This document shows positions 5,203 to 52,073 of a DNA stretch of 57,027 nt, piece after piece. Origin of the DNA: a virus (taxonomy: Duplodnaviria > Caudoviricetes); IMG/VR virus record IMGVR_UViG_3300010371_000009, positions 1 to 57,027 of that record, one strand, 5' to 3'. A program made the translations under genes and the position numbers. The stretch's first letter is position 1, and every line of letters starts with the position of its first letter. A model generated the notes under the pieces. It was not told the DNA's origin, searched no databases, and worked only from the letters and a program-made list of their open reading frames with translations.

Positions 5203-5406
5203 ATGGCTGTTGATAAAAAAGGCAAGATTAAATTGCTTTATCCTAAGCTTGTTGTGGTTGGACAAGACAAGAGCGGTAAGAATATTAAAAAGCGCGTTAT
5301 GAATGAAGAAGAAGAAAAGGCTTTGCTTGGTGTTAAAGAGCCTGAAAAGAAAGAACTTGAAAAGAAAGAAGAAACTAAAACTACTCCTGCTTGGGGTACT
5401 AAGTAA
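5203..5406 (+). CDS. hypothetical head-associated protein
   Basis: 67-aa ORF with AAGGA RBS after the coat gene. Confidence 0.7.
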   Translation: MAVDKKGKIKLLYPKLVVVGQDKSGKNIKKRVMNEEEEKALLGVKEPEKKELEKKEETKTTPAWGTK

Positions 5407-6377
5407 TGACTACAGCCCGTGATATTGTCAATCTTGCGTTTAAGCAAGCTGGCATACTTGGGCTAGGTCAAACACTTAATGCTGAAGATACCAATGATGG
5501 CTTTACATTATTAAATCAAATGGTGGCACAATGGCAAAAGCGACGTTGGCTTGTGCCATCATTACAAATTTTAAATAAGACTTTAACTGGTCAAAAATCT
5601 TATACTGTGGGTTTAGGTGGTTTTTTCGATATTAAGCGACCAAGTGATATTAAAGGTGCTTATGTAATTCAAAAAAATACTGGTCCTGTTCCAGTTAGTT
5701 TGCAGCTAACTAAATTGTTTTCTTATGAAGATTACATAAGAATTGCTGTTAAAGATTTACAATCTTTACCAGATCATTTTTTCTACGATGCTCAATATCC
5801 ATTAGCTAATTTGTATATTTGGCCAGTTGGCAATTCGCTATATGAATTGTATATTCTTTGTCAAAGTCAATTGGGTTTTGGTACAACCATCAGTCAAGGT
5901 GCTATTAGTTCTGGTGGTACTCTTTATACCGATGGAATTTACAATAATATTTTACTAACTGGTGGTTCCGGTACTGGTGCAACAGCAGACATTACTGTTA
6001 CTGCTGGTGTAGTAACTTTGTTTAATTTATTAACTGGTGGTCAAAACTACAATATTGGCGACATACTTTCTGTAAACAATGCAGATATTGGTGGCACTGG
6101 TGCTGGTTTTGCTTATGTTGTTCAAAACATATCTGCCAATTTGAACACAGATGTTGTAATGCCACCTGAATATGAAGAAGCTTTGTTTTTAAATTTGAGT
6201 ATAAGACTTTCTGCAATGTATCAATTAGAGCCTACTTCAGCTACAGTTGTTTTAGCTAAGAAATCTTTGAACACACTAAAAACTATTAACACTCAAGTTC
6301 CTCAATTATCTATGCCTCAAGCACCTGGATTGCGAACGGGTAAAGCTTTCAATATTTGGAATGCTGACGGATATTAA
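5406..6377 (+). CDS. head-tail adaptor (P22 gp4-like) with inserted Gly-rich beta domain
   Basis: MTTARDIVNLAFKQAGILG...LNQMVAQW and PPEYEEAL...LSIRL motifs; position after the coat gene. Confidence 0.75.
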   Translation: MTTARDIVNLAFKQAGILGLGQTLNAEDTNDGFTLLNQMVAQWQKRRWLVPSLQILNKTLTGQKSYTVGLGGFFDIKRPSDIKGAYVIQKNTGPVPVSLQLTKLFSYEDYIRIAVKDLQSLPDHFFYDAQYPLANLYIWPVGNSLYELYILCQSQLGFGTTISQGAISSGGTLYTDGIYNNILLTGGSGTGATADITVTAGVVTLFNLLTGGQNYNIGDILSVNNADIGGTGAGFAYVVQNISANLNTDVVMPPEYEEALFLNLSIRLSAMYQLEPTSATVVLAKKSLNTLKTINTQVPQLSMPQAPGLRTGKAFNIWNADGY

Positions 6378-6382
6378 AATTA

Positions 6383-8341
6383 ATGGGACGTGTCAATTTA
6401 CTTGGCCAGCCTTATTCTGGTAAAGGTTTGATTGCCAGCGCACAACGCTGTGTCAATCTCTATGGTGAAAGTAATAAGGATAGCCTTTCGCCTACTCCAA
6501 TGACATACTACCAGTTTCCTGGTACTGAATTATTAGGAACACCTTTAAATCAAGCTATAGCGCGTTGTATCTATAGAACAAGTATCGGTACTTGCTATGA
6601 AGTTGTTGGCTCCAATGTTTATTTTGTTCAACCAGATGGAGAAACAATTTTAATTGGTGTGATTGAAGATAAGCTTTCTCAAGTTTATATGGCTGATAAT
6701 GGGTTAGTAGCTGTTATAGTAGATGGTGTGAATGGATATGCAATAGATTTGTCTAATAATAATTTTGGACAAATTATTGATCCATCTTTTTATGGTGCAG
6801 ATTTTGCATTATTCTTAAATACATTTTTTGTTTTCAATCGTCCAGGTACAAATCAATTTTACATAAGCTTATCTATGGTCACATTCGGTATGTTGACCAA
6901 TACAGCTATTGCTACAGGTTCTATTACAAATCATGGTTCTAAATATACTAATGGAAATTATTTTAGTGTTCCTTTAACTGGCGGAAGTGGCGACGGAGCT
7001 TTAGCAGATATAACAATTGGCGGTACTAATCCTGCTGCTGGTGTTATAGTTGGTGGAACACTTTACACTAACGGTACATATTTAAATGTTCCTTTAACTG
7101 GTGGCGCTGGTACTGGCGCACACGCTGATATTACCGTCGCTGGTGGTGCTGTTACTGTAGTTAATTTAAAATTTGATGGTCAAAATTACGCTATCGGCAA
7201 TGTTCTATCTGCAACAGCAGCTAGCATTGGTGGTACTGGTTCTGGATTTACATTTACATTAACAGCTTTAGGACAAGTTGTCACTAATGTCTCTATAGTT
7301 TATGGTGGTGAAAATTATTTAATTGGTGATACATTATCTGTTAATAATTTAGAAATTGGTGGTGTTGGAGCAGGATTTATTTGGACTATTACAGGTGTAG
7401 ATACTGCGTTTAATCCATTAGACATAGCTGCTAAATCTAGTTCCGCCGATCCAATTGTGGGTATAGCTACAGTTCATAACGAATTGTGGTTGATTGGTGC
7501 TTTAACAACTGAAGTTTGGCTAGGTACTGGTGCTGCTGATTTCTTCTTTCAAATTGTTCAAGGTGCATTTATTGACCACGGCTCAATCGCGCCATATTCT
7601 ATAGCTAATCAAGACGTTATTGTATTTTGGATAAGTCAAGATAAACAAGGTTCTGGTATTATTGTTAAAGGTCAAGGCTACGATGTTACTGAAATTTCTA
7701 CACCTTACATCGTAAGTAAAATTAAAACTTATCCGACAATAGCAGATGCTATTGGAATGTGTTTCCAAATAGAAGATCACGCATTCTATTTATTACAATT
7801 TCCAACAGCAAACGCTACTTGGCTTTATGATTTAAAAACTGGATTTTGGGCAGAATTAGGAAAATGGAATACTGCTACAAATCAGTATAACAGATATAGA
7901 GCTAATTGTTGTGCATTTGCATTTGGTATGAATTTAATAGGTGATTATCAAACTGGAAAAATTTATAAATTAAATCCAAATGTATATACAGATGGTGGTG
8001 ATCCAATTAAATGGTTACGGACTTTTCCACACCTAATAGGCGATGAATTTGAACGCATTATCTATAATAGCTGTGATGCTGATATAGAAGTTGGCAATTC
8101 TGTTCAAGACGATTTAAACGCACCTGATCCACAAATATTTTTAAGCTGGTCAGATAATCGTGGAAAAAGTTTTGGCTTTCCTGTAGGTCAATCTATGGGA
8201 AGGCAAGGTGAATTTTATACAACTGTTTCTTGGAATAGATTAGGTTATGGTCGAGATAGAGTATTTCAATTAGAGTGGTCAGAACCTTGTAAAACAGCTT
8301 TGAATGGTGTTTTCGTTCAAAGCAAACAAGCTAAAACATAA
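6383..8341 (+). CDS. tail hub / DNA stabilisation protein (P22 gp10-like) with inserted domains
   Basis: RCVNLY N-terminus, MADNG, TTEVW, LSWSDNRGKSFG, WNRLGYGRDRVF motifs. Confidence 0.88.
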   Translation: MGRVNLLGQPYSGKGLIASAQRCVNLYGESNKDSLSPTPMTYYQFPGTELLGTPLNQAIARCIYRTSIGTCYEVVGSNVYFVQPDGETILIGVIEDKLSQVYMADNGLVAVIVDGVNGYAIDLSNNNFGQIIDPSFYGADFALFLNTFFVFNRPGTNQFYISLSMVTFGMLTNTAIATGSITNHGSKYTNGNYFSVPLTGGSGDGALADITIGGTNPAAGVIVGGTLYTNGTYLNVPLTGGAGTGAHADITVAGGAVTVVNLKFDGQNYAIGNVLSATAASIGGTGSGFTFTLTALGQVVTNVSIVYGGENYLIGDTLSVNNLEIGGVGAGFIWTITGVDTAFNPLDIAAKSSSADPIVGIATVHNELWLIGALTTEVWLGTGAADFFFQIVQGAFIDHGSIAPYSIANQDVIVFWISQDKQGSGIIVKGQGYDVTEISTPYIVSKIKTYPTIADAIGMCFQIEDHAFYLLQFPTANATWLYDLKTGFWAELGKWNTATNQYNRYRANCCAFAFGMNLIGDYQTGKIYKLNPNVYTDGGDPIKWLRTFPHLIGDEFERIIYNSCDADIEVGNSVQDDLNAPDPQIFLSWSDNRGKSFGFPVGQSMGRQGEFYTTVSWNRLGYGRDRVFQLEWSEPCKTALNGVFVQSKQAKT

Positions 8342-9249: not shown

Positions 9250-9704
9250 TTACTACATCAATTGAAAAGTTTTGTGATATTTTTGAAGAAATGAAATCCT
9301 TAAATAAGGTTCATTATGAAGAAATATCGGAACATGCTAAACACGGTATCAGTCTTAATCCTGATTATCCTGCTTATTTTGCTAAAGAGAACGCTGGTGA
9401 ATTATTAGTAATTGTGTTGCGTGACACTGGTAAATTAGTCGGCTATTACATTGGCTTGATAGGTCATTCGTTACATTACAAAGATTGCTTGCAATGCGCG
9501 ATGGATATAATTTACGTTGACCCAAATTTTAGGGGACAAAGCGGTGGAAAGCTGCTAATGGATCGTCTCAAATCAGAATGTGGGCAACGCGGCATCCGTG
9601 TAATGACGATGGGATGCAAAAATGCTCATAAAATTTACATGGAAAAATTATTAATAGAAAGCGGCTTTAATGCGTATGAAACGCATTATTCATTCTGGTT
9701 GTAA
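9246..9704 (+). CDS. GNAT-family acetyltransferase-like protein
   Basis: GKLVGY, DIIYVDPNFRGQSGG acetyl-CoA motif. Confidence 0.8.
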   Translation: MITTSIEKFCDIFEEMKSLNKVHYEEISEHAKHGISLNPDYPAYFAKENAGELLVIVLRDTGKLVGYYIGLIGHSLHYKDCLQCAMDIIYVDPNFRGQSGGKLLMDRLKSECGQRGIRVMTMGCKNAHKIYMEKLLIESGFNAYETHYSFWL

Positions 9705-11854: not shown

Positions 11855-13788
11855 TGGCTAATGAATACGATGATTTAATTAATGAGTTTGGCTCTACAGG
11901 TGCTAAAAAGCCTGTAGAAATCGCTACGCCATATCATGATTTAATTAATGAATTTGGTAGCGGTAATACCGTTAAAGCTGTACCGCAAATAGCACAAGAC
12001 GTTTCTGGTAGCTCGCATTTTCCAAAACCAAATCAACCTATTACAGGCAATACTACAGGATTTGGTGATTTACCAGTAATTCAAGATTTAAAGAAAGCTC
12101 CTGCTTATGTTATTAATAAAAGCATAGAAGGCTTCAACGAAGGTAAAGCTACAGCTAGTAAAGGTATTAATGAAATTGCAACCAACAAATCTGCTTCAGG
12201 TGTTGGTAATTTTGCTTTAGGTACACTTCAAGAAGGTTTAAACTTAACCGGACTTCCTGCACTTGCGTCTGGTGCAACTAAATTTTTAGGTAAAGCTATC
12301 GGTAATAAACAAGCTGCTGAAACAGCCGAATTTGTGGGCACAAGTGGATTACCTATTTTAAAAGCTGGTAAAGTTCTAGGTTCTGCTATGCCTAGTACTA
12401 GAGCTTTAGACACATTGATTAGCAATGTTGGTGTTGAAAACATACCTTCCGTTATTAAACAATTGAAATCTAATCCACGATTGACATTAATGGATGTTGA
12501 TCCAAATGCTAAAATAATTGCGCAAGGTTTAGCTTCGGAACCTGGAAAGCCGCGCGATATTTTAGACAAGATTGTAAAAACAAGACAAGATACGCAATTA
12601 GATACTGTAGTTGGTGCGTTAGATGAAGCTATGGATGCACCTGTATCAGTTAAACAAAAAATGGATACTCTAAAATCCAACATTAAAAAAGTTGGACAAG
12701 AGATAAATCCAATTGTAGCTAACACAAAACCTGTTGATATTTCACCAGTAGTTGCAGATATTGATACTAAATTAAAGCCTGGAATTAATAGTGTAATAAC
12801 TGCTGGTGAACCTTTACCTTTAGGTGATATGGAAAAGACATTATCTAAAGTTAGAGATTTTATCTCTGATGATAAATCTTTTCGCACTGATCCTCAAAGC
12901 TTGCATATTTTTCAATCAGCGTTACGTTCTAAAGCTGAAGATTTATTAAATAGCTCTAGCGGTCAAGATAGACAATTAGGCTATGCTTTAATGAATGTGC
13001 GTAATCAAGTAGTAAACGCAATTGATAAAGCTTCCCCACAAGTTATGGACGCTGCTGGAAATCAAGTTGGTACTTATAAAACCGCTCTATCTAAATATCG
13101 TGATGAAAATGATATAAGCGATGCTTTCAAAAAAGGTCAATTGATAACTAAAAATCGCTTGGGACAATTAGACGATAATCCAGAATATTGGGCTGAATGG
13201 GTTAGCAAAGCAACTCCACAAGAATTAGAAGCTGCTAGGGAAGGTGCAAGATTAGCATTTGCACATCAAATGGGGTCTATGCGTTTTTCTGCTCGTAAAG
13301 GTATGGAAATTCCTGAAGTGCCTTTTAATACTGAAAAATTAAAACTTCTTTTTGGTAATAAAGAAGTTGAAAAGATGAATGATGCATTGAAAGATGAACG
13401 CAAGATAGCTGATACAAATACTAAATTATTTCAAAATTCTCAAACGGCTATGCGATTGTTAGGTGCTAAAGCAACAGAAGTAAGACAAGATTATAAACCA
13501 AATTTTACTAAAACTATTTTGCCAGCAGCTTTAGAAGCTGGTGGTCAATATGCTTTAGGCATTCCTGCTTTAGGAACAATGGCTGGTTTTGCTTATCCAT
13601 TTGCTCGCAGTAAAATTACTAAATTAGGTCAACATTTGGATAGACAAACCAATGCAGAGATTGCTAACTTGGCGTCTGCTACAGGTGAAGCGCGGGAAAA
13701 CTTAATTAAAGCATTAGAAGATCGACTACCAAAAAACAAATTGTCAATTGGACAAAAATTAAAACTTAGTTTGCCGGTAGCCCCTTAA
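11854..13788 (+). CDS. DNA ejection protein (gp16 position)
   Basis: 644-aa helical protein with a hydrophobic C-terminal segment; synteny. Confidence 0.6.
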   Translation: MANEYDDLINEFGSTGAKKPVEIATPYHDLINEFGSGNTVKAVPQIAQDVSGSSHFPKPNQPITGNTTGFGDLPVIQDLKKAPAYVINKSIEGFNEGKATASKGINEIATNKSASGVGNFALGTLQEGLNLTGLPALASGATKFLGKAIGNKQAAETAEFVGTSGLPILKAGKVLGSAMPSTRALDTLISNVGVENIPSVIKQLKSNPRLTLMDVDPNAKIIAQGLASEPGKPRDILDKIVKTRQDTQLDTVVGALDEAMDAPVSVKQKMDTLKSNIKKVGQEINPIVANTKPVDISPVVADIDTKLKPGINSVITAGEPLPLGDMEKTLSKVRDFISDDKSFRTDPQSLHIFQSALRSKAEDLLNSSSGQDRQLGYALMNVRNQVVNAIDKASPQVMDAAGNQVGTYKTALSKYRDENDISDAFKKGQLITKNRLGQLDDNPEYWAEWVSKATPQELEAAREGARLAFAHQMGSMRFSARKGMEIPEVPFNTEKLKLLFGNKEVEKMNDALKDERKIADTNTKLFQNSQTAMRLLGAKATEVRQDYKPNFTKTILPAALEAGGQYALGIPALGTMAGFAYPFARSKITKLGQHLDRQTNAEIANLASATGEARENLIKALEDRLPKNKLSIGQKLKLSLPVAP

Positions 13789-13971
13789 TCTTATATACCA
13801 ATACAAAGGTTCAATTTTATACCAAAAATAAGAAGCAATAATGAATATTATAGGCATAAATACAAATCTATGATATTTAAAAGTCAAGAAAAATATTAAG
13901 CTTAATACAAAAAATATTGGATTGACTAGAGATATAACAACGGAAACTATTATGAAAATTTTAAATGCCAT
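13759..13971 (-). CDS. small antisense membrane protein, possible superinfection exclusion
   Basis: 70 aa with two hydrophobic segments, very AT-rich, on the opposite strand between the ejection gene and tail fibre. Confidence 0.5.
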   Translation of the reverse strand: MAFKIFIIVSVVISLVNPIFFVLSLIFFLTFKYHRFVFMPIIFIIASYFWYKIEPLYWYIRLRGYRQTKF

Positions 13972-16900
13972 TCGGTTTACATTCCTTTTTATATTTCTTT
14001 TAAATCCGAATATTGTATTGGCTCAAGATACAAGTGCTTCATTGTTGCCAAATGCAGTACAGCAATTTTTTGACAATAATGGTAATCCATTAGCTAGAGG
14101 TACAGTCACTACTTATCAGCCTGGAACAACTATATTAGCGACAACTTGGAAAGATGCACTTCAGCTTACACCTAACACAAATCCGATTATTTTAGATGGT
14201 GGTGGCAAAGCCATCATTTATGCTGCTACACCAATCCGACAGGTTGTCAAGGATCAAAATAATAATTTAATTTGGGATGCTGTGTCAACGCCGTCTGGTA
14301 GTGGCTTTAGTCCTACGTTTATTGGCGATGGTCAATTAGTTGGTACAATTAAACCTTGGGCTGGATTGATTGCACCAAATCAATATGCTTTTGCATTTGG
14401 TCAAGAGTTATCGCGTGTCACAAACAATGATTTATTTATTGCAATAACACAGACATTCAATGTTACTTGTGCATCTGGTAGTCCAACAATAACAGGTATT
14501 GGCGATACTACTCAAATTAGAATTGGTGAAGTTGTAGAAGTATCAGCTTGCATAATTAGTCCACCAACTGTTATTTCTAAAACAACCAATAGTGTTACTT
14601 TAAGTGCAAATTCTATTGTCTCTACTAGTACATCTGCTAGATTTTTTCCTTGGGGTAATGGTAATGGAAGTACAACATTCAATGTTCCTGATTTAAGAGG
14701 TTCTGTATTAGCTGGCCGTAACAATATGGGCGGCTCTGCTTCTACTAAGATTACAAGCACATTTTATGGTACTGATCCAAACGGACAAGGTGCTGCTGGT
14801 GGAAGTCAAACACAAAACTCGACTATATCACAAGCAAATTTACCTAATGTAAATTTTGCTGTTAATATTCCATCTGGTCAAGGATCGCATACCCACAGTC
14901 TTACTGGCACTAGCAATGATATGCTAGGTATTGGTGGTGGTACAATAGTTCGTGGTTCTACTGTTAATGGATTTGGTACACTATATAATCCAACAGTAGT
15001 TGCCAATACATTGCCAGCTATGACTGGTACTGCTGCATCAGGTGGTTCTGGTACAGCTTTTGCGAACAATGTAATTCAACCAACCTTAATGATAAATTAT
15101 ATCATTAAGGTTTTAGCTGATGTTCCTAATAGTTCGGCCAATGGTGTTGCGTCATTGGGTGGAATGACTGGTGTTATAGCTTGTGGAAACGGCTTAGTTT
15201 GTACTGGTAATGTTGTTTCTATTAGCTCTGCTGTGCCAGCAGGAACATTAAACCAAGTTCAATACAATAATGGATTTGCGTTTAACGCTTCTGCTAATTT
15301 TGTTTTTACCGATCCTACTTTAACTTTAGGAAAATCTGGTACAGCTACAGGACAATTAGAATTAGCTGGTGCTACAAGTGGTTCTGTAATTCAGCAAGCA
15401 CATAGTACTGCTGGTGCTCCTGTAATAACTTGGGGTAATTCTACTGGCACACCTGCTGTTGTAGCTACTTCGCCATTATCTTTAGATACTACAACTGGTG
15501 TGTTAAGTTGTCCTAGTTGTGGCGGTGCATCCATTATTGTTGGATCAACTGTTGTTTCTAGTGGAACAACTGGTAGAGTTCTTTTCGACAATGGCGGATT
15601 GTTAGGCGAATATACAACTATACCAGTTGGGTTTGGTGGTACTGGTGCTGCAACATTTACGTCTAATTTGCCATTATTAGGTAATGGCACATCAGCTTTA
15701 GCTCAAGGTACAATATCTGGAAATACAACTAAATTCGCAACAGTAAGTGGTAGTTTTACTTCTGGTAATTGTATCAAATCGGATGCTAGCGGAAACTTAA
15801 TTGACAATGGCGCTACTTGTGGCGGTGGTGGCGGTGGAAGTCCTGGTGGCACAAGCGGTCAAGTACAATATAATAATGCTGGATCATTTGGAGGTTTTAC
15901 AGCTTCAGGTGATGCTACGATAAATACATCAACTGGTGCTGTTGCTGTAACTAAGACTGGTGGTGTCGCATTCGCAGCTTCAGCCACAACAGATACAACA
16001 AATGCTTCTAATATTTCTTCTGGTACATTAGCTGCTGCTCGCGGTGGCGCTGGTACAATCACTGGTGCTCTTAAAGGCAATGGTGCTGGTGTTGTTTCTC
16101 AAGCAGCTTGTGCAGATTTATCTAATGGCTCTGCATCTTGTTCTACAGATACAACAAATGCTTCTAATATTTCTAGCGGTACTTTAAATACACTTAGATT
16201 ACCAAGTCCATTTACAAGCGGTACTAGGAATGGCAACACTTCTGTATTTGCTACAATAAGTGGAAGCTTAATTGCTGGTAATTGTTTAAAATCAGATGCT
16301 AGTGGCAATATCATAGATGATGGTGCAGTCTGTGGTGGTGGCGGTGGCGGTGGATCGCCAGGGGGAACCAATGGACAAATTCAATATAATAATTTAGGTG
16401 CGTTTGGTGGATTTACAGCAAGTGGTGATGCAACAATTACACCTTCTACAGGTGCAGTAATTGTTACAAAAACTAATGGTGTATCGTTCGCTGCTTCAGC
16501 AACCACTGACACTACAAACGCTTCTAACATTTCCTCTGGTACATTAAATACACTTAGACTTCCATCACCATTTACAAGTGGAACAGTCAGCGGAAATACA
16601 TCTGTATTTGCTACCACAACAGGAACATTAATTAATACGCATTGTGTTAGCTTGGATACCAATTTTAATTTTGTCGATGCTGGTGCGCCTTGTGGTGCTG
16701 GCACAGTGACAAGTGTGGGTATTACTGCTGGTACTGGTATAACTCAGTCTGGTTCTCCAATTACCAGTTCTGGCAATATCACAGTTAATGTTGATAAAGC
16801 TACAACAAGTAATGCTTGGGCTGCAACATCAAATAAAGTTCTAACCACTGATATTTTATTCAATGGTGTTGGTGCTCTTCAAAGCTTAAGCGGAACATCT

Positions 16901-17200
16901 TCTGTTACACCTGATTTAAGCCTTGGACGAAATTTTGTTTTTACAGCTACAAGTGCTACAAACTTTACTTTAAATACACCTACCAATACACACATTGGAG
17001 ATACTGGTTGTATCTTATTCTTTCAGCCTGCTTCTGGCACACCAGTTACAATAACATTTGGCACTAATTGGGTAACTCCATCTGGTGTAAGCGGTAAAGC
17101 TCTTACTTCTACATTAGGTGCTTTAGACACAGTTTGTTATTTAATTGTAAATTCTACCCCTAGTGTCTTATTTACATTAGCTAATAATTGGACACATTAA
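13952..17200 (+). CDS. tail fibre with N-terminal signal peptide, collar domain and internal repeats
   Basis: QQFFDNNGNPLARG...NTNPIILD attachment-type domain; GTIKPWAG...TTFNVPDLRG tail-collar motif. ATG 13952 preferred over TTG 13922. Confidence 0.85.
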   Translation: MKILNAIRFTFLFIFLLNPNIVLAQDTSASLLPNAVQQFFDNNGNPLARGTVTTYQPGTTILATTWKDALQLTPNTNPIILDGGGKAIIYAATPIRQVVKDQNNNLIWDAVSTPSGSGFSPTFIGDGQLVGTIKPWAGLIAPNQYAFAFGQELSRVTNNDLFIAITQTFNVTCASGSPTITGIGDTTQIRIGEVVEVSACIISPPTVISKTTNSVTLSANSIVSTSTSARFFPWGNGNGSTTFNVPDLRGSVLAGRNNMGGSASTKITSTFYGTDPNGQGAAGGSQTQNSTISQANLPNVNFAVNIPSGQGSHTHSLTGTSNDMLGIGGGTIVRGSTVNGFGTLYNPTVVANTLPAMTGTAASGGSGTAFANNVIQPTLMINYIIKVLADVPNSSANGVASLGGMTGVIACGNGLVCTGNVVSISSAVPAGTLNQVQYNNGFAFNASANFVFTDPTLTLGKSGTATGQLELAGATSGSVIQQAHSTAGAPVITWGNSTGTPAVVATSPLSLDTTTGVLSCPSCGGASIIVGSTVVSSGTTGRVLFDNGGLLGEYTTIPVGFGGTGAATFTSNLPLLGNGTSALAQGTISGNTTKFATVSGSFTSGNCIKSDASGNLIDNGATCGGGGGGSPGGTSGQVQYNNAGSFGGFTASGDATINTSTGAVAVTKTGGVAFAASATTDTTNASNISSGTLAAARGGAGTITGALKGNGAGVVSQAACADLSNGSASCSTDTTNASNISSGTLNTLRLPSPFTSGTRNGNTSVFATISGSLIAGNCLKSDASGNIIDDGAVCGGGGGGGSPGGTNGQIQYNNLGAFGGFTASGDATITPSTGAVIVTKTNGVSFAASATTDTTNASNISSGTLNTLRLPSPFTSGTVSGNTSVFATTTGTLINTHCVSLDTNFNFVDAGAPCGAGTVTSVGITAGTGITQSGSPITSSGNITVNVDKATTSNAWAATSNKVLTTDILFNGVGALQSLSGTSSVTPDLSLGRNFVFTATSATNFTLNTPTNTHIGDTGCILFFQPASGTPVTITFGTNWVTPSGVSGKALTSTLGALDTVCYLIVNSTPSVLFTLANNWTH
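15700..16700 (+). repeat. ~2.5 tandem protein-level repeats in the tail fibre
   Basis: SGNT..FAT.SG....GNC.KSDASGN.ID.GA.CGGGGGGSPGGT.GQ.QYNN.G.FGGFTASGDATI...AASATTDTTNASNISSGTL occurs twice plus a partial third; boundaries approximate. Confidence 0.85.
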
Positions 17201-17201
17201 T

Positions 17202-18056
17202 ATGAAAAAGTCCATTTATTTAAGCTTTGTATTTTTAATATTTTGTTGTATTGGATTTGTGCCAACACTTGCACAAATTCCAGGTATTCAAAATCCTTTA
17301 TTTTTTAATATTAATCCGACAGCTACAGCTTCTTGTACTGGCGGTACAATTACATCTTCTGGTGGATTTACTATCCACACTTTCACTTCTAATGGTACTT
17401 TAACTTGTAATGGTTCTTTATCACCATCTTATCTATTAATAGCTGGCGGCGGTGGTGGTGGTAAAGGAAATGGTGGCGGTGGTGGTGGTGCTGGTGGCGT
17501 TCTCTCCGGTACAACATCTTTAACAGCTACTTCTTATTCTATTGTTATTGGTGGTGGTGGCGCACGCGGTACATCTGGAAAAGGAAGTAATGGCTCTAAT
17601 AGTACATTTAATAGTTTTACATCAATTGGTGGTGGCGGTGGTGCAGGCACTTCTACTAATAATGGGCAAAATGGTGGAAGTGGTGGTGGTGCTGCTAGAA
17701 CAGGAACAGGTGGCGTTGCAACTGCTGGTCAAGGATTTAATGGTGGAACAGTTACAGTTATTAATCAAGGTGGCGGCGGTGGTGGTGGTGGTGGATTAGG
17801 TGGAAGCTCTACAACAACGGTTGGTGGCATTGGTGGAATTGGATTTACTAGTAGCATTTCAGGTACATCTATTTGTTATGCTGGCGGCGGTGGTGGTGGT
17901 AGCACTGGTGGTAGTCCTGGTACAGCTACTTGCGGCGGTGGTGCTGGTGGTGGAACCGCTGGTTCTGGTACTTCAAATACTGGTGGCGGTGGTGGTGGAT
18001 CGCCATCCGGAAGTGCTGGTGATGGTGGCTCTGGTATATTAATTATAAGTTATTAA
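17202..18056 (+). CDS. glycine-rich tail-associated protein with signal peptide
   Basis: TIHTFTSNGT, LIAGGGGGG, GDGGSGILIISY glycine-rich domain signature. Confidence 0.8.
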   Translation: MKKSIYLSFVFLIFCCIGFVPTLAQIPGIQNPLFFNINPTATASCTGGTITSSGGFTIHTFTSNGTLTCNGSLSPSYLLIAGGGGGGKGNGGGGGGAGGVLSGTTSLTATSYSIVIGGGGARGTSGKGSNGSNSTFNSFTSIGGGGGAGTSTNNGQNGGSGGGAARTGTGGVATAGQGFNGGTVTVINQGGGGGGGGGLGGSSTTTVGGIGGIGFTSSISGTSICYAGGGGGGSTGGSPGTATCGGGAGGGTAGSGTSNTGGGGGGSPSGSAGDGGSGILIISY

Positions 18057-18074
18057 TATTAAGGAATTAAATAT

Positions 18075-18884
18075 ATGTATCTAGTCAATCAATCTTTTAG
18101 TATAGCTGCTTTTGAAGATTATATCAATAAACTTAAATTCAACGGATGGACGCCAAATTTTATTGTTGTTCATAACACATCTGTTCCAAATCAAGCTTTA
18201 TACAAGAAATGGCATGAAGATAAAAGCTGGTATATGGAGCGATGGGGTAAGAATTTAGCAAGCTATTATGCAGGAATGGGTTGGAATGGTTGCCCACACT
18301 TTATTGTAGGCTATGATAAAATCTTAGTTTTAAATGATCCAACTAGACCTGGAACACATACACCTAGTTGGAATAAATTTACATGGGGTGTTGAAACTAT
18401 AGCTGAATTTGAAAATGAACCATTTGCAGATGGTGTAAAAGAAAATTTAATTGGAGCGTTGGCTATTCTTCATGAAAGAGTTGGTTTAAATCCAACTGAT
18501 TTTAAATTAGGCGTAAGAGGATTACACTTTCACAAAGAAGATAAAGCTACAACACATAAAACGTGTCCTGGTAAAAATTTAATCAAAGCTGATTTAGTCA
18601 AAGCTGTATTTAATAAAATGAATGAAGGAAACGATGGACATTTTGAACCAACCATAGAAGCACAAGAAAGCAAATCTATTAACTTGAGTATAGAAGAAGC
18701 CACAAGCATTTCAACTTTACAGTTGTGGCTTTCCAAGTCTTTAAAAAAAGACATAAGAGCCGATGGGATTTTAGGTCCGATTACCAAAGCAGCGGTCAAA
18801 GAATTTCAACAGCTTCACAATTTAAAAGTTGACGGCATCGCTGGTCCTGTGACACGTTCAGCCTTGAAATTGACTTTATATTAG
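18075..18884 (+). CDS. endolysin: N-acetylmuramoyl-L-alanine amidase with C-terminal peptidoglycan-binding domain
   Basis: IVVHNT, HFHKE, KTCPG amidase motifs; DGILGPITKAAVKEFQQLHNLKVDGIAGPVT PG-binding motif. Confidence 0.92.
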   Translation: MYLVNQSFSIAAFEDYINKLKFNGWTPNFIVVHNTSVPNQALYKKWHEDKSWYMERWGKNLASYYAGMGWNGCPHFIVGYDKILVLNDPTRPGTHTPSWNKFTWGVETIAEFENEPFADGVKENLIGALAILHERVGLNPTDFKLGVRGLHFHKEDKATTHKTCPGKNLIKADLVKAVFNKMNEGNDGHFEPTIEAQESKSINLSIEEATSISTLQLWLSKSLKKDIRADGILGPITKAAVKEFQQLHNLKVDGIAGPVTRSALKLTLY

Positions 18885-18897
18885 AGGGGATTTTAAT

Positions 18898-19194
18898 ATG
18901 TTTCCTAACTGGTCGCAATTATCTGGCGCTGTTGATCGTGTTACATTAATTGCATTGACTTATGCAGCTTCTAAAGGTTGGATCACTCCATCTGATGTTG
19001 CTGGCATAGCTACAATGGTGGTTGGCATTGCTGGTTCTGTTTATGCATTTTATGTCAATCGTAATACAAATCTTGCTAAACAAGCTGCTTCAATTCCAAA
19101 CACAACTGTTGTAACAACTCCTGAAATTGCAGCAGCTACACCACAATTAAATAACGTTGTTTCTACAACAGAAGTAAAGGTTACAAACAAATGA
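18898..19194 (+). CDS. putative holin
   Basis: Two hydrophobic helices, directly after the endolysin. Confidence 0.65.
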   Translation: MFPNWSQLSGAVDRVTLIALTYAASKGWITPSDVAGIATMVVGIAGSVYAFYVNRNTNLAKQAASIPNTTVVTTPEIAAATPQLNNVVSTTEVKVTNK

Positions 19195-19586
19195 AAAAGA
19201 TTTTATTGATTTGTATTCTATCTCTAGGCTTGGCTGCTTGCTCCGACACTATGACTAAGTTTCAATCTGGTTTGGATGAAGCTGGTCAAGTCGTTAAACA
19301 AGCAATCACACCAGACAATTATGATACTGTTACAGCTTTATATGGTTCCGCTCAAGCTGTGCTTCTTGCTTATCGTAATTCCTGCCAACGCAAAATTATC
19401 GCTAAAGTCTGTTGGAAAAACATTGCTCTTGTGCAGCCTTATGAAGCTAAGGCTTATACAGCATATGTTAATTTAAGAACATTTATTAAGAACAATCCAA
19501 GTGGCGATAGCTTTAGTTTAGTCCAAACAGCAAAGAACGCTATTTTAGCGTTCCAAAATGCTCAAGCTGCTAATGGAGTTAAATAA
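19191..19586 (+). CDS. lipoprotein, possible spanin component
   Basis: Lipobox LGLAA-C after a hydrophobic signal; in the lysis cassette. Confidence 0.65.
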   Translation: MKKILLICILSLGLAACSDTMTKFQSGLDEAGQVVKQAITPDNYDTVTALYGSAQAVLLAYRNSCQRKIIAKVCWKNIALVQPYEAKAYTAYVNLRTFIKNNPSGDSFSLVQTAKNAILAFQNAQAANGVK

Positions 19587-19817
19587 ATGGATGCTGCAAC
19601 AGCTATTGGACTTGTCACAACAGCTATTGATGTTTTCACTAAGGTAGAGCCTGTGCTTGCTCAAGCTATTACCGATTTGAAACCTTTCGCTGTAGCGTTA
19701 TTTGAAAAATTTACAGGACAAAATATTAGCGATACTGATCGTGCAGATTTAGAAGCTCGTATTGACGATATGCACAATCAAATTCAGGCACCAATTCCTT
19801 CTGATGAAGATCAATAA
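19587..19817 (+). CDS. hypothetical lysis-cassette protein
   Basis: 76-aa ORF with GGAG RBS. Confidence 0.7.
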   Translation: MDAATAIGLVTTAIDVFTKVEPVLAQAITDLKPFAVALFEKFTGQNISDTDRADLEARIDDMHNQIQAPIPSDEDQ

Positions 19818-20217
19818 GCCTGAAATGACTTATCAATTCTGGTTAACTTTAGGTGGAATGGTTGTAACGTTCTTATTTAGCGTTATCACGATCACAGCTA
19901 AAGTTACCAGAATTGTTACAACGCATGAAACTAATGTTGATGCAAAGCTAATAGCTCATGATGTTGAAGTGAAAACATTTGTTAGACAAAAGATAGAAGA
20001 TGACGGTAAGCTGCTACGCGATAATATTTCTGAAACTCTACGATCAATTAAAACTCACATAGAACGCTACGAAGAAAAGCATTATAAGCTAGAATTGTAC
20101 ATAAGAGATAATTATATTGAAGTACCAACTTTCAAAGATGCTTTGACAGATATTAAATCATTGATTGTTGAAGTCAAAGAAAAATTAGACAATCTCACAG
20201 AATTAAAACTACGATAG
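19804..20217 (+). CDS. membrane-anchored coiled-coil protein (holin/inner-spanin-like)
   Basis: One N-terminal TM (FWLTLGGMVVTFLFSVITI) then coiled coil; start uncertain. Confidence 0.55.
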   Translation: MKINKPEMTYQFWLTLGGMVVTFLFSVITITAKVTRIVTTHETNVDAKLIAHDVEVKTFVRQKIEDDGKLLRDNISETLRSIKTHIERYEEKHYKLELYIRDNYIEVPTFKDALTDIKSLIVEVKEKLDNLTELKLR

Positions 20218-20232: not shown

Positions 20233-20793
20233 ATGATAAAGTCTATACTCGCTATAACCATGTTTGCTGCTTTAACAAGTTCCGCTAATGCCAATCCAAC
20301 AATTGATTTAAAAAATGAATTTTGTGGAGCTAGATATTGTGGGCAAGTCTCAACCTACTCGAAACGTAAAGTTATAGCTCATAAACACAAGCGTTATTTA
20401 AAAAAGCGTGTCGCTCATAAGGCTAAAAAAATTCACCTAGCCTCGCTAGGTCCGATCACGAATGAGCCAACCCATAATAATCTAATAGCCAAGGCGAGCC
20501 AATATATCGGCATGAATGCGCGTCAAGTTGGCGTGCGGCTTAACCTTTGGTGCAGCGCCTTTTTGCGTAAATTAACCAATGCTAAAGGTGTTGATGATCG
20601 TGCAATTAGTTGGTTAAAACGTCCGCGTACAGCTAAACGCATTGGCGCTATCGCTGTAATGGCGCACCATGTCGGCATTGTAAAAGGATTTGATAGGAGT
20701 GGTAATCCAATTCTTATAAGTGGCAATCACGGTCATAGGGTTGGTGTAGGAGTTTATTCAAAATATCGCATATTAGCTTATGTTGAAGCTTAA
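20233..20793 (+). CDS. secreted CHAP/NlpC-like cell-wall peptidase (TIGR02594-like)
   Basis: Signal peptide ending ANA; WCSAF...HHVGIV...ISGNHG catalytic Cys/His motifs. Confidence 0.75.
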   Translation: MIKSILAITMFAALTSSANANPTIDLKNEFCGARYCGQVSTYSKRKVIAHKHKRYLKKRVAHKAKKIHLASLGPITNEPTHNNLIAKASQYIGMNARQVGVRLNLWCSAFLRKLTNAKGVDDRAISWLKRPRTAKRIGAIAVMAHHVGIVKGFDRSGNPILISGNHGHRVGVGVYSKYRILAYVEA

Positions 20794-50648: not shown

Positions 50649-51206
50649 ATGATTAAGCGCGTAATGCTTGCAGCTTTAGGAATTGCTGCTTTAACTACAA
50701 CTGCTTTTGCTCAAAATGGAATGTGGTCTAATTTCCCTATCGCTGGCGGTAACGCTTATTCTTGCGGTAGTGTGAATGGTGTTAGCAATTGTACTGTTCC
50801 TGCTGGTCCTGCTTTGACTGGTAGTGAGAATATGCCTGCTAATACCAATGCTGCTAGTGGTGCTGCTGTTCCACAGAATGTTCTTATTCCAGTGGTTGCG
50901 TTAGGTGCTGGTGCAGCGCAGTTTGCTAGTCCTTTAACTGGTACTACTGTTGCTGTGAACGCTGGTGTTACTCGTGTTATGTTAACACCTGCTGGCACTA
51001 TTTCTACACTTACTCTTACGTTGCCACCTGTTGCAGGATTGGTTGATAATCAACTTATTTCAGTTGGTTCGAGCCAAACTGTTACAACTTTAACAGTTGG
51101 TGGTAATGGTGCATCGTTAGTTGGTGCTCCTACAACGGTTGGCGCTACATCTGGTTTTCAGCTTGTATATCGCAAGTCTAATACCACTTGGTATCGCATT
51201 CAGTAA
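50649..51206 (+). CDS. signal-peptide-bearing beta-rich virion-like protein
   Basis: MIKRVMLAALGIAALTTTAFA|QN; LTPAGTISTLTLTLP...TTWYRI; GGAG RBS. Confidence 0.75.
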   Translation: MIKRVMLAALGIAALTTTAFAQNGMWSNFPIAGGNAYSCGSVNGVSNCTVPAGPALTGSENMPANTNAASGAAVPQNVLIPVVALGAGAAQFASPLTGTTVAVNAGVTRVMLTPAGTISTLTLTLPPVAGLVDNQLISVGSSQTVTTLTVGGNGASLVGAPTTVGATSGFQLVYRKSNTTWYRIQ

Positions 51207-51233
51207 TTTACACATTTAAAAAGGATTAATTTT

Positions 51234-51641
51234 ATGCGTAAATTACTAATTGGTCTTGCAGCGTGCCTTAGCTTTGCTGTCTTAGCTAAGGCTGCTGATA
51301 TTCCTTACTTTGGTCCTGGTTTTGCACTTCAGGATGGCGGTAAGTTGAATGTGATGGTTGATGCTATCAACGCATTGACTAACAACAAAGTGGCTGGTGA
51401 AATCGCTTTAGATGGCACCAATCCTACAGCGGTAGCTACAGGTTTAAGCTCTATTACATCTTGTAATGTGAATTTGAAGCTCGCTACCGCTCCTGGTGTT
51501 GGTACGTCCAACATTACTTATTCTACAACTGCTGGAACGCTTAATATTTATGGCTGGAAAGTTACAAGCTCTAGCGATAATACACTAATTGCTTCTACAG
51601 GTACAGAAACAATTGGTTATAGCTGTTCTGGTGTGAAGTAA
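51234..51641 (+). CDS. signal-peptide-bearing beta-rich virion-like protein
   Basis: MRKLLIGLAACLSFAVLAKA|AD; Thr/Gly/Ser-rich. Confidence 0.75.
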   Translation: MRKLLIGLAACLSFAVLAKAADIPYFGPGFALQDGGKLNVMVDAINALTNNKVAGEIALDGTNPTAVATGLSSITSCNVNLKLATAPGVGTSNITYSTTAGTLNIYGWKVTSSSDNTLIASTGTETIGYSCSGVK

Positions 51642-51653
51642 GGGATTAAACAA

Positions 51654-52073
51654 ATGAAGCGTCTATTACTTGGATTTTTAATTTATCTAAGCTTGGGCGC
51701 TTCATTTGCCCACAGTCAAGGCACTCAATTGTGCTTTACAACAAATGGGACTAATTGCATTGCAGTTAGTCCTACCAATCCTTTACCAGTTGCAAGCGGT
51801 ACAGTAAATTTTAAAAATATAACGACAAATGCCAGCACTGAAGTTAAAGCTAGTCCTGGTACAGTGTTTGGTATTGTTGTTAATACTGCTGGTGCTACAT
51901 CAAACGTTAAACTTTATGACGATGCTGATGGTACTTGTAGTAGCAATTTAGTTGGTACTTTTTCTACATTATCACAAACCGCAATTACCAATTTAAATAT
52001 TTCTATGTCAATTGGAATTTGCGCTCTTACTGCTGGTGGTACGCCAGCCGATATAACAATTTTGTATCGTTAA
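51654..52073 (+). CDS. signal-peptide-bearing beta-rich virion-like protein
   Basis: MKRLLLGFLIYLSLGASFAHS|QG; VKASPGTVFGIVVN...VKLYD...GI...DITILY. Confidence 0.75.
   Translation: MKRLLLGFLIYLSLGASFAHSQGTQLCFTTNGTNCIAVSPTNPLPVASGTVNFKNITTNASTEVKASPGTVFGIVVNTAGATSNVKLYDDADGTCSSNLVGTFSTLSQTAITNLNISMSIGICALTAGGTPADITILYR

What the first reader, a model, noticed from the sequence alone, without database searches (positions are those of the whole stretch)
13952..18056. Tail fibre and Gly-rich tail protein carry Sec signal peptides and paired cysteines
Seen: the fibre starts MKILNAIRFTFLFIFLLNPNIVLA|QD just before the virion-attachment-type domain. Its mature part has 16 Cys, mostly in local pairs (CGNGLVC, CPSC, NCIKS..ATC, ACAD..ASC, NCLKS..AVC, HCVS..APC). 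The next gene starts MKKSIYLSFVFLIFCCIGFVPTLA|QI and has 4 mature Cys. Established: tailed-phage virions assemble in the reducing cytoplasm, while disulfides form in the periplasm (DsbA). Inference: receptor-binding parts are exported, oxidatively folded in the periplasm and attached to particles only at or after inner-membrane lysis. This would be a compartmentalised virion maturation pathway.
Basis: partly seen in the sequence, partly recalled or inferred. Interest (0 to 1): 0.85.

Follow-up and report, generated by a model that had tools for sequence, protein, structure and literature searches.

The report
Phage tail fibre carrying export signal
A short-tailed phage, like a large group of uncultured relatives, puts an ordinary bacterial secretion signal and strictly paired cysteines on its only tail fibre, so the fibre very probably folds outside the cytoplasm where the rest of the virus particle is built.

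Summary
Observation confirmed. The window is a complete 57-kb P22-like podophage. Its fibre (13952-17200) and the coupled Gly-rich gene (17202-18056) each start with a 24-residue Sec-type leader ending VLA|Q and TLA|Q. The domain right after the fibre leader has the fold of the P22/Sf6 tailspike particle-binding domain, and it occurs once in the genome.

The main new test compared 320 family members. Of these, 201 carry such a leader and 107 start at the domain. Mature cysteine counts are even in 196 of 201 leader-bearers and in 53 of 107 leaderless ones (93 of 98 clusters all-even). Cysteines lie in local pairs only in leader-bearers. The four mature Cys positions of the Gly-rich protein hold Cys only in leader-bearing homologues (6 of 23 against 0 of 97).

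Export and oxidative folding are therefore strongly supported. Joining to cytoplasm-built particles at lysis is inferred and untested. I found no such route in the papers I searched. This scan has noted the same theme before on other DNA.

The parts
13952..17200 (+). Tail fibre gene, 1082-aa precursor: leader, particle-binding domain, tail-collar body, Cys-looped distal repeats and C-terminal tip.
   Evidence: ORF and translation. Pfam Collar PF07484 (E 1.2e-11) and phrog_8763 'tail protein'. 105 homologues.
13952..14023 (+). Fibre leader, residues 1-24. The n-region has K2 and R8, the h-region is FTFLFIFLL, and the c-region is NPNIVLA with V at -3 and A at -1. Gln is at +1.
   Evidence: The AF2 model has a helix at 2-17 and low confidence at 21-26. 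Equivalent leaders occur in 201 of 320 family members. The border is small-x-small in 199 of 201.
14024..14311 (+). Particle-binding (head-binding type) domain, about residues 25-120.
   Evidence: pLDDT is 82-93. Foldseek probability is 1.00 to tail-complex chains of cyanophages Pan3 and Pam1, the P22 tailspike head-binding domain (2vnl, 2vky, 2xc1, 9jg6_M) and Sf6 gp14N (7sg7). It is the only copy in six frames of the window.
14324..15226 (+). Conserved tail-collar body, residues 125-425, with two invariant Cys pairs (173/200 and 411/417).
   Evidence: Invariant columns in A1. This body is present in 192 of 201 leader-bearers and 2 of 107 leaderless homologues. All four Cys are kept in 42 of 42 aligned rows.
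15227..17197 (+). Variable distal part with six further local Cys pairs, including three C-x15-C loops each followed by a Gly run, and a C-terminal tip.
   Evidence: This part is not modelled confidently as a monomer (pLDDT below 50).
17202..18056 (+). Gly-rich fibre-type protein, 284-aa precursor. Its start lies one base after the fibre stop.
   Evidence: Pfam Gly_rich_2 PF21722 (E 2.4e-18) and phrog_2295 (E 5.8e-47). AF2 mean pLDDT is 88.6. The fold matches the mycobacteriophage Bxb1 tail tip (9d93_Qa, E 3e-5) and the cyanophage Pam3 fibre (7ypx_A, E 2e-4).
17202..17273 (+). Leader of the Gly-rich protein, residues 1-24: MKK, a 16-residue hydrophobic run, then PTLA|Q.
   Evidence: The model has a helix at 4-17 and a low-confidence linker at 19-40.
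5406..8341 (+). Tail adaptor (gp4-like, 5406-6377) and tail hub (gp10-like, 6383-8341). These are the presumed docking site of the fibre's particle-binding domain.
   Evidence: Pfam P22_Tail-4. phrog_637 and phrog_578 (E 4.2e-85). Docking is inferred from the P22 and Sf6 structures matched.
18075..20217 (+). Lysis cassette directly downstream: leaderless endolysin (18075-18884), holin (18898-19194), lipoprotein with a LAAC lipobox (19191-19586), and a protein with an N-terminal membrane helix (19804-20217). The last two are possibly spanin parts.
   Evidence: Amidase_2 plus PG_binding_1, and Phage_holin_10. Sequences. The spanin roles are my inference.
50649..52073 (+). Three further leader-bearing late proteins between the small and large terminase genes, with 2, 2 and 4 mature Cys. 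They belong to the same theme; their role is unknown.
   Evidence: No family match. Noted before on this genome as e1-6258807.

Best explanation
The fibre precursor and the Gly-rich protein are made late from one translationally coupled message. Their leaders take them through the host Sec translocon, and signal peptidase I cuts after VLA and TLA, leaving an N-terminal Gln. In the oxidising periplasm the fibre trimerises and closes eight local disulfides per chain; the Gly-rich protein closes two. DNA-filled particles that carry adaptor and hub but no fibre accumulate in the cytoplasm. When the holin opens the inner membrane the two pools meet. The fibre's P22-type particle-binding domain, which is the very N-terminus of the mature protein, then docks on the hub. 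This happens before or just after the outer membrane gives way.

Shown here: the leader and its conservation, the cysteine statistics, the fold of the anchor domain, the single copy, and the gene order.

Inferred: actual cleavage, actual disulfides, and the time and place of docking.
For: (1) Leader. Both proteins have a charged n-region, an uncharged hydrophobic run and small residues at -3 and -1. Among 320 family members, 201 have such a leader. A small-x-small border was found in 199 of 201: at -1 A 138, S 31, G 29; at -3 A 117, V 33, L 16; at +1 Q 143. Leader sequence identity is 0.29 against 0.61 for the domain.

(2) Paired cysteines go with the leader. Mature Cys counts are even in 196 of 201 leader-bearers, 53 of 107 leaderless homologues and 11 of 12 short or truncated ones. 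Fisher p = 2.6e-24. After clustering the variable C-terminal parts into 98 clusters, 93 are all-even, 3 all-odd and 2 mixed. Gaps 1-2, 3-4 and so on have median 17 (83% at most 30 residues); gaps 2-3, 4-5 and so on have median 107 (12% at most 30). In leaderless homologues the two medians are 35 and 36, with 42% and 42%.

(3) Within the window, 8 of 9 leader-bearing proteins have an even mature Cys count. The leaderless proteins that have Cys split 14 even to 18 odd (my count).

(4) Virion part. The anchor domain has the fold of the P22 and Sf6 tailspike head-binding domains. There is one copy in the genome. The gene sits after the ejection-protein genes of a P22-like module. The anchor is conserved while the distal parts vary. 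The closest cultured relative, Pseudomonas phage PAE2 (coat 50.7% identical), has the same domain at the start of a leaderless 669-aa tailspike ORF.

(5) Gly-rich protein. It has the fold of known tail-tip and fibre proteins. Cys at its four mature positions occur in 6 of 23 leader- or prepilin-bearing homologues and in 0 of 97 leaderless ones, and they appear as pairs 45/69 and 225/244.

(6) Established knowledge, recalled and not from a call: P22 tailspike addition is the last assembly step and works in vitro on tailspike-less heads. Canonical holins make very large membrane lesions. Exported disulfide-bonded proteins show an even-cysteine bias.
Against: No export, cleavage or disulfide was measured, and SignalP could not be run. 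The leader-bearing group is largely one architecture: 192 of 201 share the collar body. Leader and cysteine pattern could therefore partly reflect common descent, although the clustered test on the variable parts argues against that. Three to five leader-bearers have odd counts. Disulfide-linked virions built in the cytoplasm exist in print (Milano, PMC10811340, listing only), so paired cysteines alone do not require export. After lysis in open water, particles and fibres would dilute quickly. The scheme therefore needs docking in the short interval between holin triggering and outer-membrane rupture, and nothing here shows that. Host and virion proteome are unknown. No cultured phage with a leader-bearing homologue was found: of the 48 phage records matched, the three I looked at were all leaderless.
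Confidence: 0.6

Rival explanations
1. The two proteins are exported but never join the particle. They act in the envelope or outside the cell, for example by masking or destroying the receptor to block superinfection, as decoys on debris and vesicles, or as adhesins. The virion would recognise its host through another part, such as the enlarged adaptor and hub proteins.
For: Nothing here shows virion association. Phage genes of unknown function with Sec leaders have been read this way for Porphyromonas gingivalis prophages (PMC10367356, passages read). The gp4-like and gp10-like proteins carry extra domains that match parts of tail-fibre and baseplate PHROGs. The Gly_rich_2 domain also occurs on cellular secreted or pilin-like proteins (PF07963 and PF18962 co-occur with it).
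Against: The mature N-terminus is a P22-type particle-binding domain. It is 45-70% identical across relatives while the distal parts vary, which is the usual signature of a swappable receptor-binding protein. It is the only such domain in the genome and sits in the tailspike position. In 9 of 9 related IMG/VR loci with a complete fibre ORF, out of 10 examined, the leader-bearing fibre is the only fibre-like gene between the ejection genes and the lysis genes. A particle-binding domain has no evident use on a protein that never meets a particle.
Confidence: 0.15
2. The leader is not cleaved. It works as a membrane anchor that holds the fibre on the periplasmic face of the inner membrane until lysis, or permanently.
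For: The hydrophobic runs are long enough to span a membrane: 16 uncharged residues in the Gly-rich protein and at least 12 in 87 of 94 homologues. Cleavage was not measured.
Against: Small residues at -3 and -1 directly at the border of the conserved domain occur in 199 of 201. A helix breaker (Pro or Gly) often lies 4-6 residues before that border. This fits a signal-peptidase I site and has no purpose in a permanent anchor. The odd cysteine in many leaders is exactly what must be removed to make the count even. The anchor domain must be free to dock on the hub.
Confidence: 0.1
3. The fibre stays in the cytoplasm and joins the particle there as in P22. The hydrophobic N-terminus has another role, such as membrane-proximal assembly or a plug in the hub. 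The cysteine pairs oxidise only after release into oxic water, as in other disulfide-stabilised virions.
For: Disulfide networks in cytoplasm-built phage particles are published (PMC10811340, PMC10491603 and PMC13576161; listings and starts of abstracts only).
Against: This does not explain why even counts and local pairs track the leader so closely: 196 of 201 against 53 of 107, and gap medians of 17 and 107 against 35 and 36. It does not explain why the leader has a basic n-region and an AxA border. It does not explain why the same coupling of leader and cysteines recurs in the unrelated Gly-rich domain and in seven other leader-bearing proteins of this genome. A basic n-region followed by a hydrophobic run is what the Sec and SRP machinery recognises (established knowledge).
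Confidence: 0.1
4. Two products come from one gene. The long form is exported. A short form, started inside the gene near the domain border, stays in the cytoplasm and is the one built into particles.
For: In the window a TTG codon (Leu23) lies two codons before the border.
Against: No Shine-Dalgarno-like motif precedes that TTG. Only 10 of 201 leader-bearing homologues have a Met within -8 to +2 of the border. A cytoplasmic short form would not select for even cysteine counts.
Confidence: 0.03

Closest known systems
P22 gp9 and Sf6 gp14 tailspikes (podophage receptor-binding proteins with an N-terminal head-binding domain)
   Same: The N-terminal domain has the same fold (Foldseek probability 1.00). 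The gene is in the same place in a P22-like module with P22-type coat, portal, gp4-like and gp10-like genes. The anchor is conserved and the distal part varies.
   Different: Those proteins start at the domain and fold in the cytoplasm. From recall: P22 tailspike cysteines are reduced in the native protein. Here a 24-residue Sec-type leader precedes the domain, and the body is a tail-collar fibre with eight local Cys pairs, not a beta-helix enzyme.
Tailspike of Pseudomonas phage PAE2 (closest cultured relative found)
   Same: The coat protein is 50.7% identical and the anchor domain 47% identical (H29). The gene is in the same position after the ejection proteins.
   Different: It is a leaderless 669-aa ORF that starts MTQLLPNGKQ at the domain. 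It has no collar body. The ORF is not annotated in the record.
Bdellovibrio bacteriovorus MAT fibres (PMC10769870; passages read)
   Same: [quoted passage not shown] Their tips vary and some contain disulfides. This shows that such fibres can be exported and fold outside the cytoplasm.
   Different: They are encoded by a bacterium and used on its own surface or vesicle, not built into a virus particle. Homology to the fibre here was not tested.
Filamentous phage coat proteins pIII and pVIII (recalled knowledge)
   Same: They are virion proteins made with Sec-type leaders. pIII has periplasmic disulfides. The particle receives them outside the cytoplasm.
   Different: Filamentous phages assemble by extrusion through the envelope without lysis. 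Here the particle is an icosahedral tailed phage packaged in the cytoplasm and released by holin and endolysin.
Leader-bearing genes of unknown function in Porphyromonas gingivalis prophages that follow the Bacteroidetes Q-rule (PMC10367356, passages; Q-rule papers PMC5837995 and PMC10653852, abstracts only)
   Same: They are phage-encoded proteins with Sec leaders whose cleavage would expose an N-terminal Gln. Gln at +1 is seen here in 143 of 199 fibres and in 5 of 8 non-lipoprotein leader-bearing proteins of the window (my reading).
   Different: Those genes are of unknown function and were read as modifiers of the host surface, not as tail fibres. Their supplementary gene table was not open to me.
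Gly-rich tail-tip and fibre proteins of mycobacteriophage Bxb1 (9d93_Qa) and cyanophage Pam3 (7ypx_A)
   Same: The fold matches residues 41-284 of the second gene, and the Pfam family PF21722 is the same.
   Different: The 97 leaderless homologues scored have no Cys at the four positions. The window's protein adds a Sec leader and two Cys pairs.

Membership tests
Sec-type cleavable signal peptide (signal peptidase I substrate) | Basic n-region, an uncharged hydrophobic h-region of about 7-15 or more residues, and a polar c-region with small residues at -3 and -1. | tested here: met
   Fibre: K2, R8; FTFLFIFLL; V at -3, A at -1. Gly-rich protein: K2, K3; a 16-residue run; T at -3, A at -1. With my own crude rules, 87 of 94 homologues pass four criteria and 199 of 201 have a small-x-small border. 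SignalP was not available.
Sec-type cleavable signal peptide (signal peptidase I substrate) | The precursor is actually translocated and cleaved. | not testable with these tools
   This needs export reporters or N-terminal proteomics.
Lipoprotein (signal peptidase II) or Tat leader | A lipobox L-x-x-C with Cys at +1, or a twin-arginine motif in the n-region. | tested here: not met
   Neither protein has Cys at +1 or an RR motif. Both motif types do occur elsewhere in the window: LAAC at 19191 and RRSFLIG at 35302-35529 on the minus strand.
SAR-type signal-anchor-release domain (as in SAR endolysins; features recalled) | A weakly hydrophobic N-terminal helix rich in Gly, Ala and Ser, with no signal-peptidase site. 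| tested here: not met
   The h-regions are rich in Phe, Leu and Ile and are followed by an AxA-type border.
P22-type tailspike or fibre with a head-binding domain | An N-terminal domain with the head-binding fold. | tested here: met
   Foldseek probability is 1.00 to 2vnl, 2vky, 2xc1, 9jg6_M, 7sg7_A, 7eeq_A and 9vyg, on a model region with pLDDT 82-93.
P22-type tailspike or fibre with a head-binding domain | Encoded in a P22-like morphogenesis module. | tested here: met
   P22 coat PF11651, P22 portal PF16510, P22_Tail-4, the Hc3 hub phrog_578 and the ejection-protein phrog_598 are all present.
P22-type tailspike or fibre with a head-binding domain | Binds the tail hub and is present in virions. 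| not testable with these tools
   No virion data exist. See Tried and rejected for a complex prediction that gave no answer.
P22-type tailspike or fibre with a head-binding domain | Leaderless, and folded and attached in the cytoplasm. | tested here: not met
   A 24-residue leader precedes the domain. 107 of 320 family members are leaderless, but the window's fibre is not.
Pfam PF07484 (phage tail collar domain) | The profile match is above the gathering score. | tested here: met
   44.8 bits against a cut-off of 24.
Pfam PF21722 (Gly_rich_2) | The profile match is above the gathering score, over nearly the whole profile. | tested here: met
   67.4 bits against a cut-off of 24.3, covering profile positions 13-225 of 226.
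Exported disulfide-bonded proteins | An even number of mature cysteines, arranged as sequence-local pairs. | tested here: met
   The fibre has 16 in eight local pairs and the Gly-rich protein has 4.
Exported disulfide-bonded proteins | Disulfides are actually present. | not testable with these tools

The most novel reading that the evidence does not exclude
A large, so far uncultured branch of P22-like podophages builds its virion in two compartments. At least 201 distinct leader-bearing fibres were examined here, from a family with 12,046 hits. Fibre-less, DNA-filled particles form in the cytoplasm. Disulfide-locked fibres and accessory fibre proteins form in the periplasm. The holin then acts as the assembly trigger as well as the lysis trigger, because opening the inner membrane is what lets fibre and particle meet. 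Infectivity would be acquired only in the last seconds of the cycle. Fibres would never see the reducing cytoplasm or the receptor precursors made there.
Probability: 0.45. Interest if true: 0.9.

Novelty: new variant of a known kind. Interest (0 to 1): 0.8.

Why it matters
Textbook assembly of tailed phages takes place entirely in the cytoplasm. A receptor-binding fibre that is secreted and oxidatively folded would add a second compartment to that pathway. Lysis timing would become part of morphogenesis. Host Sec, signal peptidase and Dsb functions would become host factors for infectivity. It could also explain how some environmental phages make very stable fibres.

In practice, such fibres would misfold if expressed without export or in reducing cytoplasm. 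That matters for anyone producing receptor-binding proteins or engineering host range. Gene callers and annotators who trim 'hydrophobic N-termini' would also miss the feature. The leader-versus-leaderless contrast within one anchor family gives a clean system for experiments.

Tried and rejected
Megablast of 13000-19000 against cultured phages found nothing. tblastn of the Gly-rich protein against cultured phages also found nothing.

The genome-contig scan with alignment A1 picked patterns in the widespread collar domain. It returned 80 loci from many phyla that say nothing about the host. Only L067 covered the anchor.

A viral-contig scan with the upstream ejection protein found no relative. 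The single-protein scan with the anchor gave only 5 loci. The alignment A2 gave 80.

The host was not identified:
- Shine-Dalgarno-like motifs precede 20 of 48 genes. My rough hand estimate of the chance expectation is about 5.
- TTGACA-type promoters occur, but the overall count is not above shuffles (65 against 59.8).
- The DNA polymerase is 42% identical to those of Pseudomonas and Stenotrophomonas phages.
- These three points suggest Pseudomonadota, whereas the strong Gln at +1 recalls the Bacteroidetes Q-rule. I leave the host open.

The AF2 monomer model of the whole fibre is confident only for residues about 40-250. Model coordinates are not exposed, so Cys-Cys distances could not be measured.

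Complex prediction with the hub C-terminal part (residues 320-652) and three copies of the anchor domain gave 'no answer' (score 0.00, mark 0.32). This is no evidence either way.

Literature searches for a precedent found no paper describing a Sec leader on a tail fibre or tailspike of a tailed phage. The papers I opened for passages held nothing relevant: PMC5723332, PMC3556154 and PMC1079782. This covers only the open-access library searched. Supplementary files were not opened. Supplementary Data 4 of PMC10367356 may list which prophage genes carry leaders.

A Cys count on the C-terminal part alone, cut at a fixed 400 residues after the leader, gave 12 all-odd clusters. The cut splits the conserved 411/417 pair in proteins with indels. 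I replaced it with whole-mature counts per cluster.

I considered and rejected a gene-calling artefact. In loci with a leaderless fibre, an in-frame stop lies a few codons upstream of the domain. In loci with a leader-bearing fibre, the open frame has the leader properties.

Full report
WHAT THE WINDOW IS. The window is a whole virus record of 57,027 bp with direct terminal repeats and about 36% G+C. Terminase, P22-type portal, scaffold, P22-type coat, a gp4-like adaptor, a gp10-like hub and ejection-type proteins lie in one rightward block. The fibre (13952-17200) follows. The Gly-rich gene comes next, starting one base after the fibre stop (17202-18056). After that lie a leaderless amidase endolysin, a holin, a lipoprotein and a protein with an N-terminal membrane helix. 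Replication genes lie on the other strand. No cultured phage is close in DNA. The nearest by coat protein is Pseudomonas phage PAE2 at 50.7% identity.

THE OBSERVATION. Each has basic residues at the start: K2 and R8 in the fibre, K2 and K3 in the Gly-rich protein. Each has an uncharged hydrophobic run rich in Phe, Leu and Ile, a Pro a few residues before the end, and small residues at -3 and -1 (V-L-A and T-L-A), followed by Gln. The fibre's ATG is preceded by a weak GGA motif. No Met lies near the border. A TTG two codons before the border has no ribosome-binding motif. All 16 fibre cysteines are in the mature part and fall into eight neighbouring pairs with gaps of 27, 6, 3, 16, 10, 16, 16 and 42 residues. 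The Gly-rich protein has two Cys in the leader and four in the mature part.

IS THE FIBRE A VIRION PART? An AlphaFold2 monomer model built on a 30-row alignment is confident only for residues about 40-250. Residues 2-17 form a helix, 21-26 are unconfident, and the next domain has pLDDT 82-93. Foldseek against the PDB matched that domain with probability 1.00 to the following structures:
- tail-complex chains of cyanopodophages Pan3 and Pam1;
- the head-binding domain of the P22 tailspike (2vnl, 2vky, 2xc1, 9jg6_M);
- Sf6 gp14N bound to its hub (7sg7).

A six-frame search of the window finds this domain once. PAE2 has the same domain at the very start of an unannotated, leaderless 669-aa tailspike ORF. 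Vibrio phage 41E34.2 and Shewanella phage X14 also start at the domain. So the leader sits directly in front of the module that, in relatives, plugs the receptor-binding protein into the tail.

THE FAMILY. A word-indexed search with residues 1-140 gave 105 proteins among 592 candidates. A full HMMER scan with the domain alone gave 12,046 hits at E <= 1e-3. In 143 of the best 150 (my count from the table) the domain starts at residue 20 or later. A search seeded with a leaderless member (P0097) gave 277 hits, of which 120 were listed.

I pooled the 321 proteins and placed the domain start by local phmmer; 320 matched. I then classed them by the stretch before the domain:
- 201 have a leader-like extension of at least 17 residues, with a 9-residue hydropathy window of at least 1.8 and an uncharged run of at least 11.
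- 107 have at most 8 residues before the domain.
- 12 are in between, and most of these look like truncated gene calls.

A small-x-small border was found in 199 of the 201: at -1 A 138, S 31, G 29; at -3 A 117, V 33, L 16; at +1 Q 143. Leaders are poorly conserved in sequence, with median identity 0.29 against 0.61 for the domain over 300 random pairs. Only their physical pattern is kept, as expected for signal peptides. Only 10 of 201 have a Met near the border, which argues against a general internal start.

THE CYSTEINE TEST. Mature cysteine counts are even in 196 of 201 leader-bearers, 53 of 107 leaderless homologues and 11 of 12 of the rest. Fisher's p is 2.6e-24. Two of the five odd leader-bearers (P0077, P0088) have a Cys right at the border and were even under the site used. 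Odd totals in the raw sequences are regularly explained by one Cys inside the leader.

The leader-bearers mostly share one architecture: 192 of 201 have the collar body, against 2 of 107 leaderless, and those two look N-terminally truncated. To guard against non-independence I clustered the variable C-terminal parts by single linkage, at 35% identity or more over half the shorter sequence. Of 98 clusters, 93 are all-even, 3 all-odd and 2 mixed. Cluster representatives have counts from 0 to 26.

Spacing gives the same answer. In leader-bearers the gaps between Cys 1-2, 3-4 and so on have median 17, with 83% at most 30 residues. The gaps 2-3, 4-5 and so on have median 107, with 12% at most 30. 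In leaderless homologues the two medians are 35 and 36, with 42% and 42%.

Inside the window, 8 of 9 leader-bearing proteins have even mature counts. Leaderless proteins with any Cys split 14 even to 18 odd (my count).

THE GLY-RICH PROTEIN. It matches Pfam Gly_rich_2 and phrog_2295. Its model is confident, with mean pLDDT 88.6. Residues 4-17 form a helix, 19-40 are an unconfident linker, and the body is above 89. The fold matches a tail-tip chain of mycobacteriophage Bxb1 and the fibre of cyanophage Pam3, and more weakly the glycine-rich domain of ALK and LTK. So 'tail protein' is a fair name.

Of its 120 listed homologues, by my rule 97 have no leader, 13 have a Sec-like leader and 10 have a prepilin leader. 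Cys at the window's four mature positions occur in 6 of the 23 leader-bearers and in 0 of the 97 leaderless ones. They come as pairs 45/69 and 225/244 (the alignment shows the same). The gene is an accessory of this lineage. Among 9 related loci with a complete fibre, only L090 has a leader-bearing Gly-rich gene after the fibre. Two others (L096, L111) have a different leader-bearing gene there. In the rest the lysis genes follow at once.

RELATED PHAGES. Of 80 IMG/VR loci found with the anchor alignment, I count by eye 27 with a clear leader, 52 that start at the domain and 1 unclear (L131). I examined ten of the 27. They lie on contigs of 25.7-60.9 kb (six of the ten are 56-61 kb) with 36-46% G+C. 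All share the order: ejection proteins, leader-bearing fibre, lysis genes. The nine with a complete fibre ORF have 8, 20, 4, 12, 8, 16, 16, 8 and 16 mature Cys. A different lineage with 48% G+C (L084, L087, L129) has a leader-bearing fibre followed by further leader-bearing, fibre-like genes.

MECHANISM. The best reading is Sec export, cleavage at the AxA border, oxidative folding in the periplasm, and docking onto cytoplasm-built particles once the holin opens the inner membrane. The first three steps rest on the statistics above. The last follows from the first three together with the evidence that the fibre is the particle's only anchor-bearing protein. It also rests on recalled knowledge that P22 tailspikes attach last and do so efficiently in vitro.

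The weak point is kinetic: docking must happen before the contents disperse. The rivals are as follows:
- exported but not a virion part (0.15);
- an uncleaved membrane anchor (0.10);
- cytoplasmic assembly with later oxidation (0.10);
- two products from one gene (0.03).

WHAT IS KNOWN. My six precedent searches found no paper describing a Sec leader on a tail fibre or tailspike of a tailed phage. The nearest items are these:
- Bdellovibrio's secreted phage-like MAT fibres, in which a conserved domain follows the signal peptide (PMC10769870, passages);
- P. gingivalis prophage genes of unknown function with Q-rule leaders (PMC10367356, passages);
- disulfide networks in cytoplasm-built virions (PMC10811340 and others, listings only);
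- from recall, the Sec-exported coat proteins of filamentous phages.

This scan has noted the same theme on other genomes, and its follow-ups reached similar verdicts. It also noted three more leader-bearing late proteins on this genome, whose leaders and Cys counts I confirmed.

VERDICT. I class it as a new variant of a known kind, a P22-type fibre with an export route. If the two-compartment assembly is real, it would be a new morphogenetic pathway for tailed phages.

Noticed in passing
window 8695-9704: An Asp/Asn beta-hydroxylase-family gene (PF05118, E 4e-13) and a GNAT acetyltransferase sit inside the structural module, between the hub region and the ejection proteins. Neither has a leader. 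Whether they modify virion proteins is unknown.
   Followed up: no
window 33772-33925 within ORF 32836-35301: ARAGORN calls tRNA-Met and tRNA-Gln inside an 821-aa primase ORF. The PHROG match of that ORF runs through residues 18-811 in one stretch (E 2.5e-235). Either the tRNA calls are false or coding and tRNA sequence overlap.
   Followed up: no
window 35302-35529 (- strand): A 75-aa ORF starts MLIARRSFLIGLGSMLAAPAIVHA, a twin-arginine (Tat)-like leader. It has no family match.
   Followed up: no
window 20233-20793: A leader-bearing 186-aa protein lies at the end of the lysis cassette. It has three mature Cys: a local pair (CGARYC) and a lone Cys. It is the only leader-bearing protein of the window with an odd count and has no family match. 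The lone Cys could be catalytic, but that is a guess.
   Followed up: no
window 50649-52073 and 47713-47982: Four more small proteins have Sec-type leaders. Three lie between the small and large terminase genes, with 2, 2 and 4 mature Cys. None has a family match. This is a large exported set for a 57-kb phage.
   Followed up: partly
window leaders; 199 homologue borders: Gln is at +1 in 143 of 199 fibre borders and in 5 of 8 non-lipoprotein leaders of the window (my reading). This resembles the Bacteroidetes Q-rule (PMC5837995, abstract only). However, 20 of 48 genes have Shine-Dalgarno-like motifs, which is unusual for that phylum as far as I recall. The host phylum remains open.
   Followed up: partly
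L002 5995-8004 (Pseudomonas phage PAE2, OK041467.1): The 669-aa tailspike ORF of PAE2 is not annotated in the record. Two short opposite-strand CDS (PAE2_16, PAE2_17) are annotated over it instead.
   Followed up: no
L084, L087, L129 (IMG/VR, 48% G+C): A different phage lineage has a leader-bearing fibre followed by one or two further leader-bearing, Cys-rich genes whose mature N-termini resemble the anchor motif (QSDSGLLPPN, QTDNGLLPNG).
   Followed up: no
window 55798-57027 joined to 1-1938: An open frame runs off the right end and another runs in from the left end, probably one large protein across the terminal repeat. Its only family hit is a weak ART-PolyVal match below Pfam's cut-off (22.7 bits against 31.2).
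   Followed up: no
P0019, P0027, P0069, P0081, P0101: Some leader-bearing fibres end in a Peptidase_S74 intramolecular chaperone domain (PF13884). This domain is a folding aid that needs no ATP, which would suit folding outside the cytoplasm.
   Followed up: no
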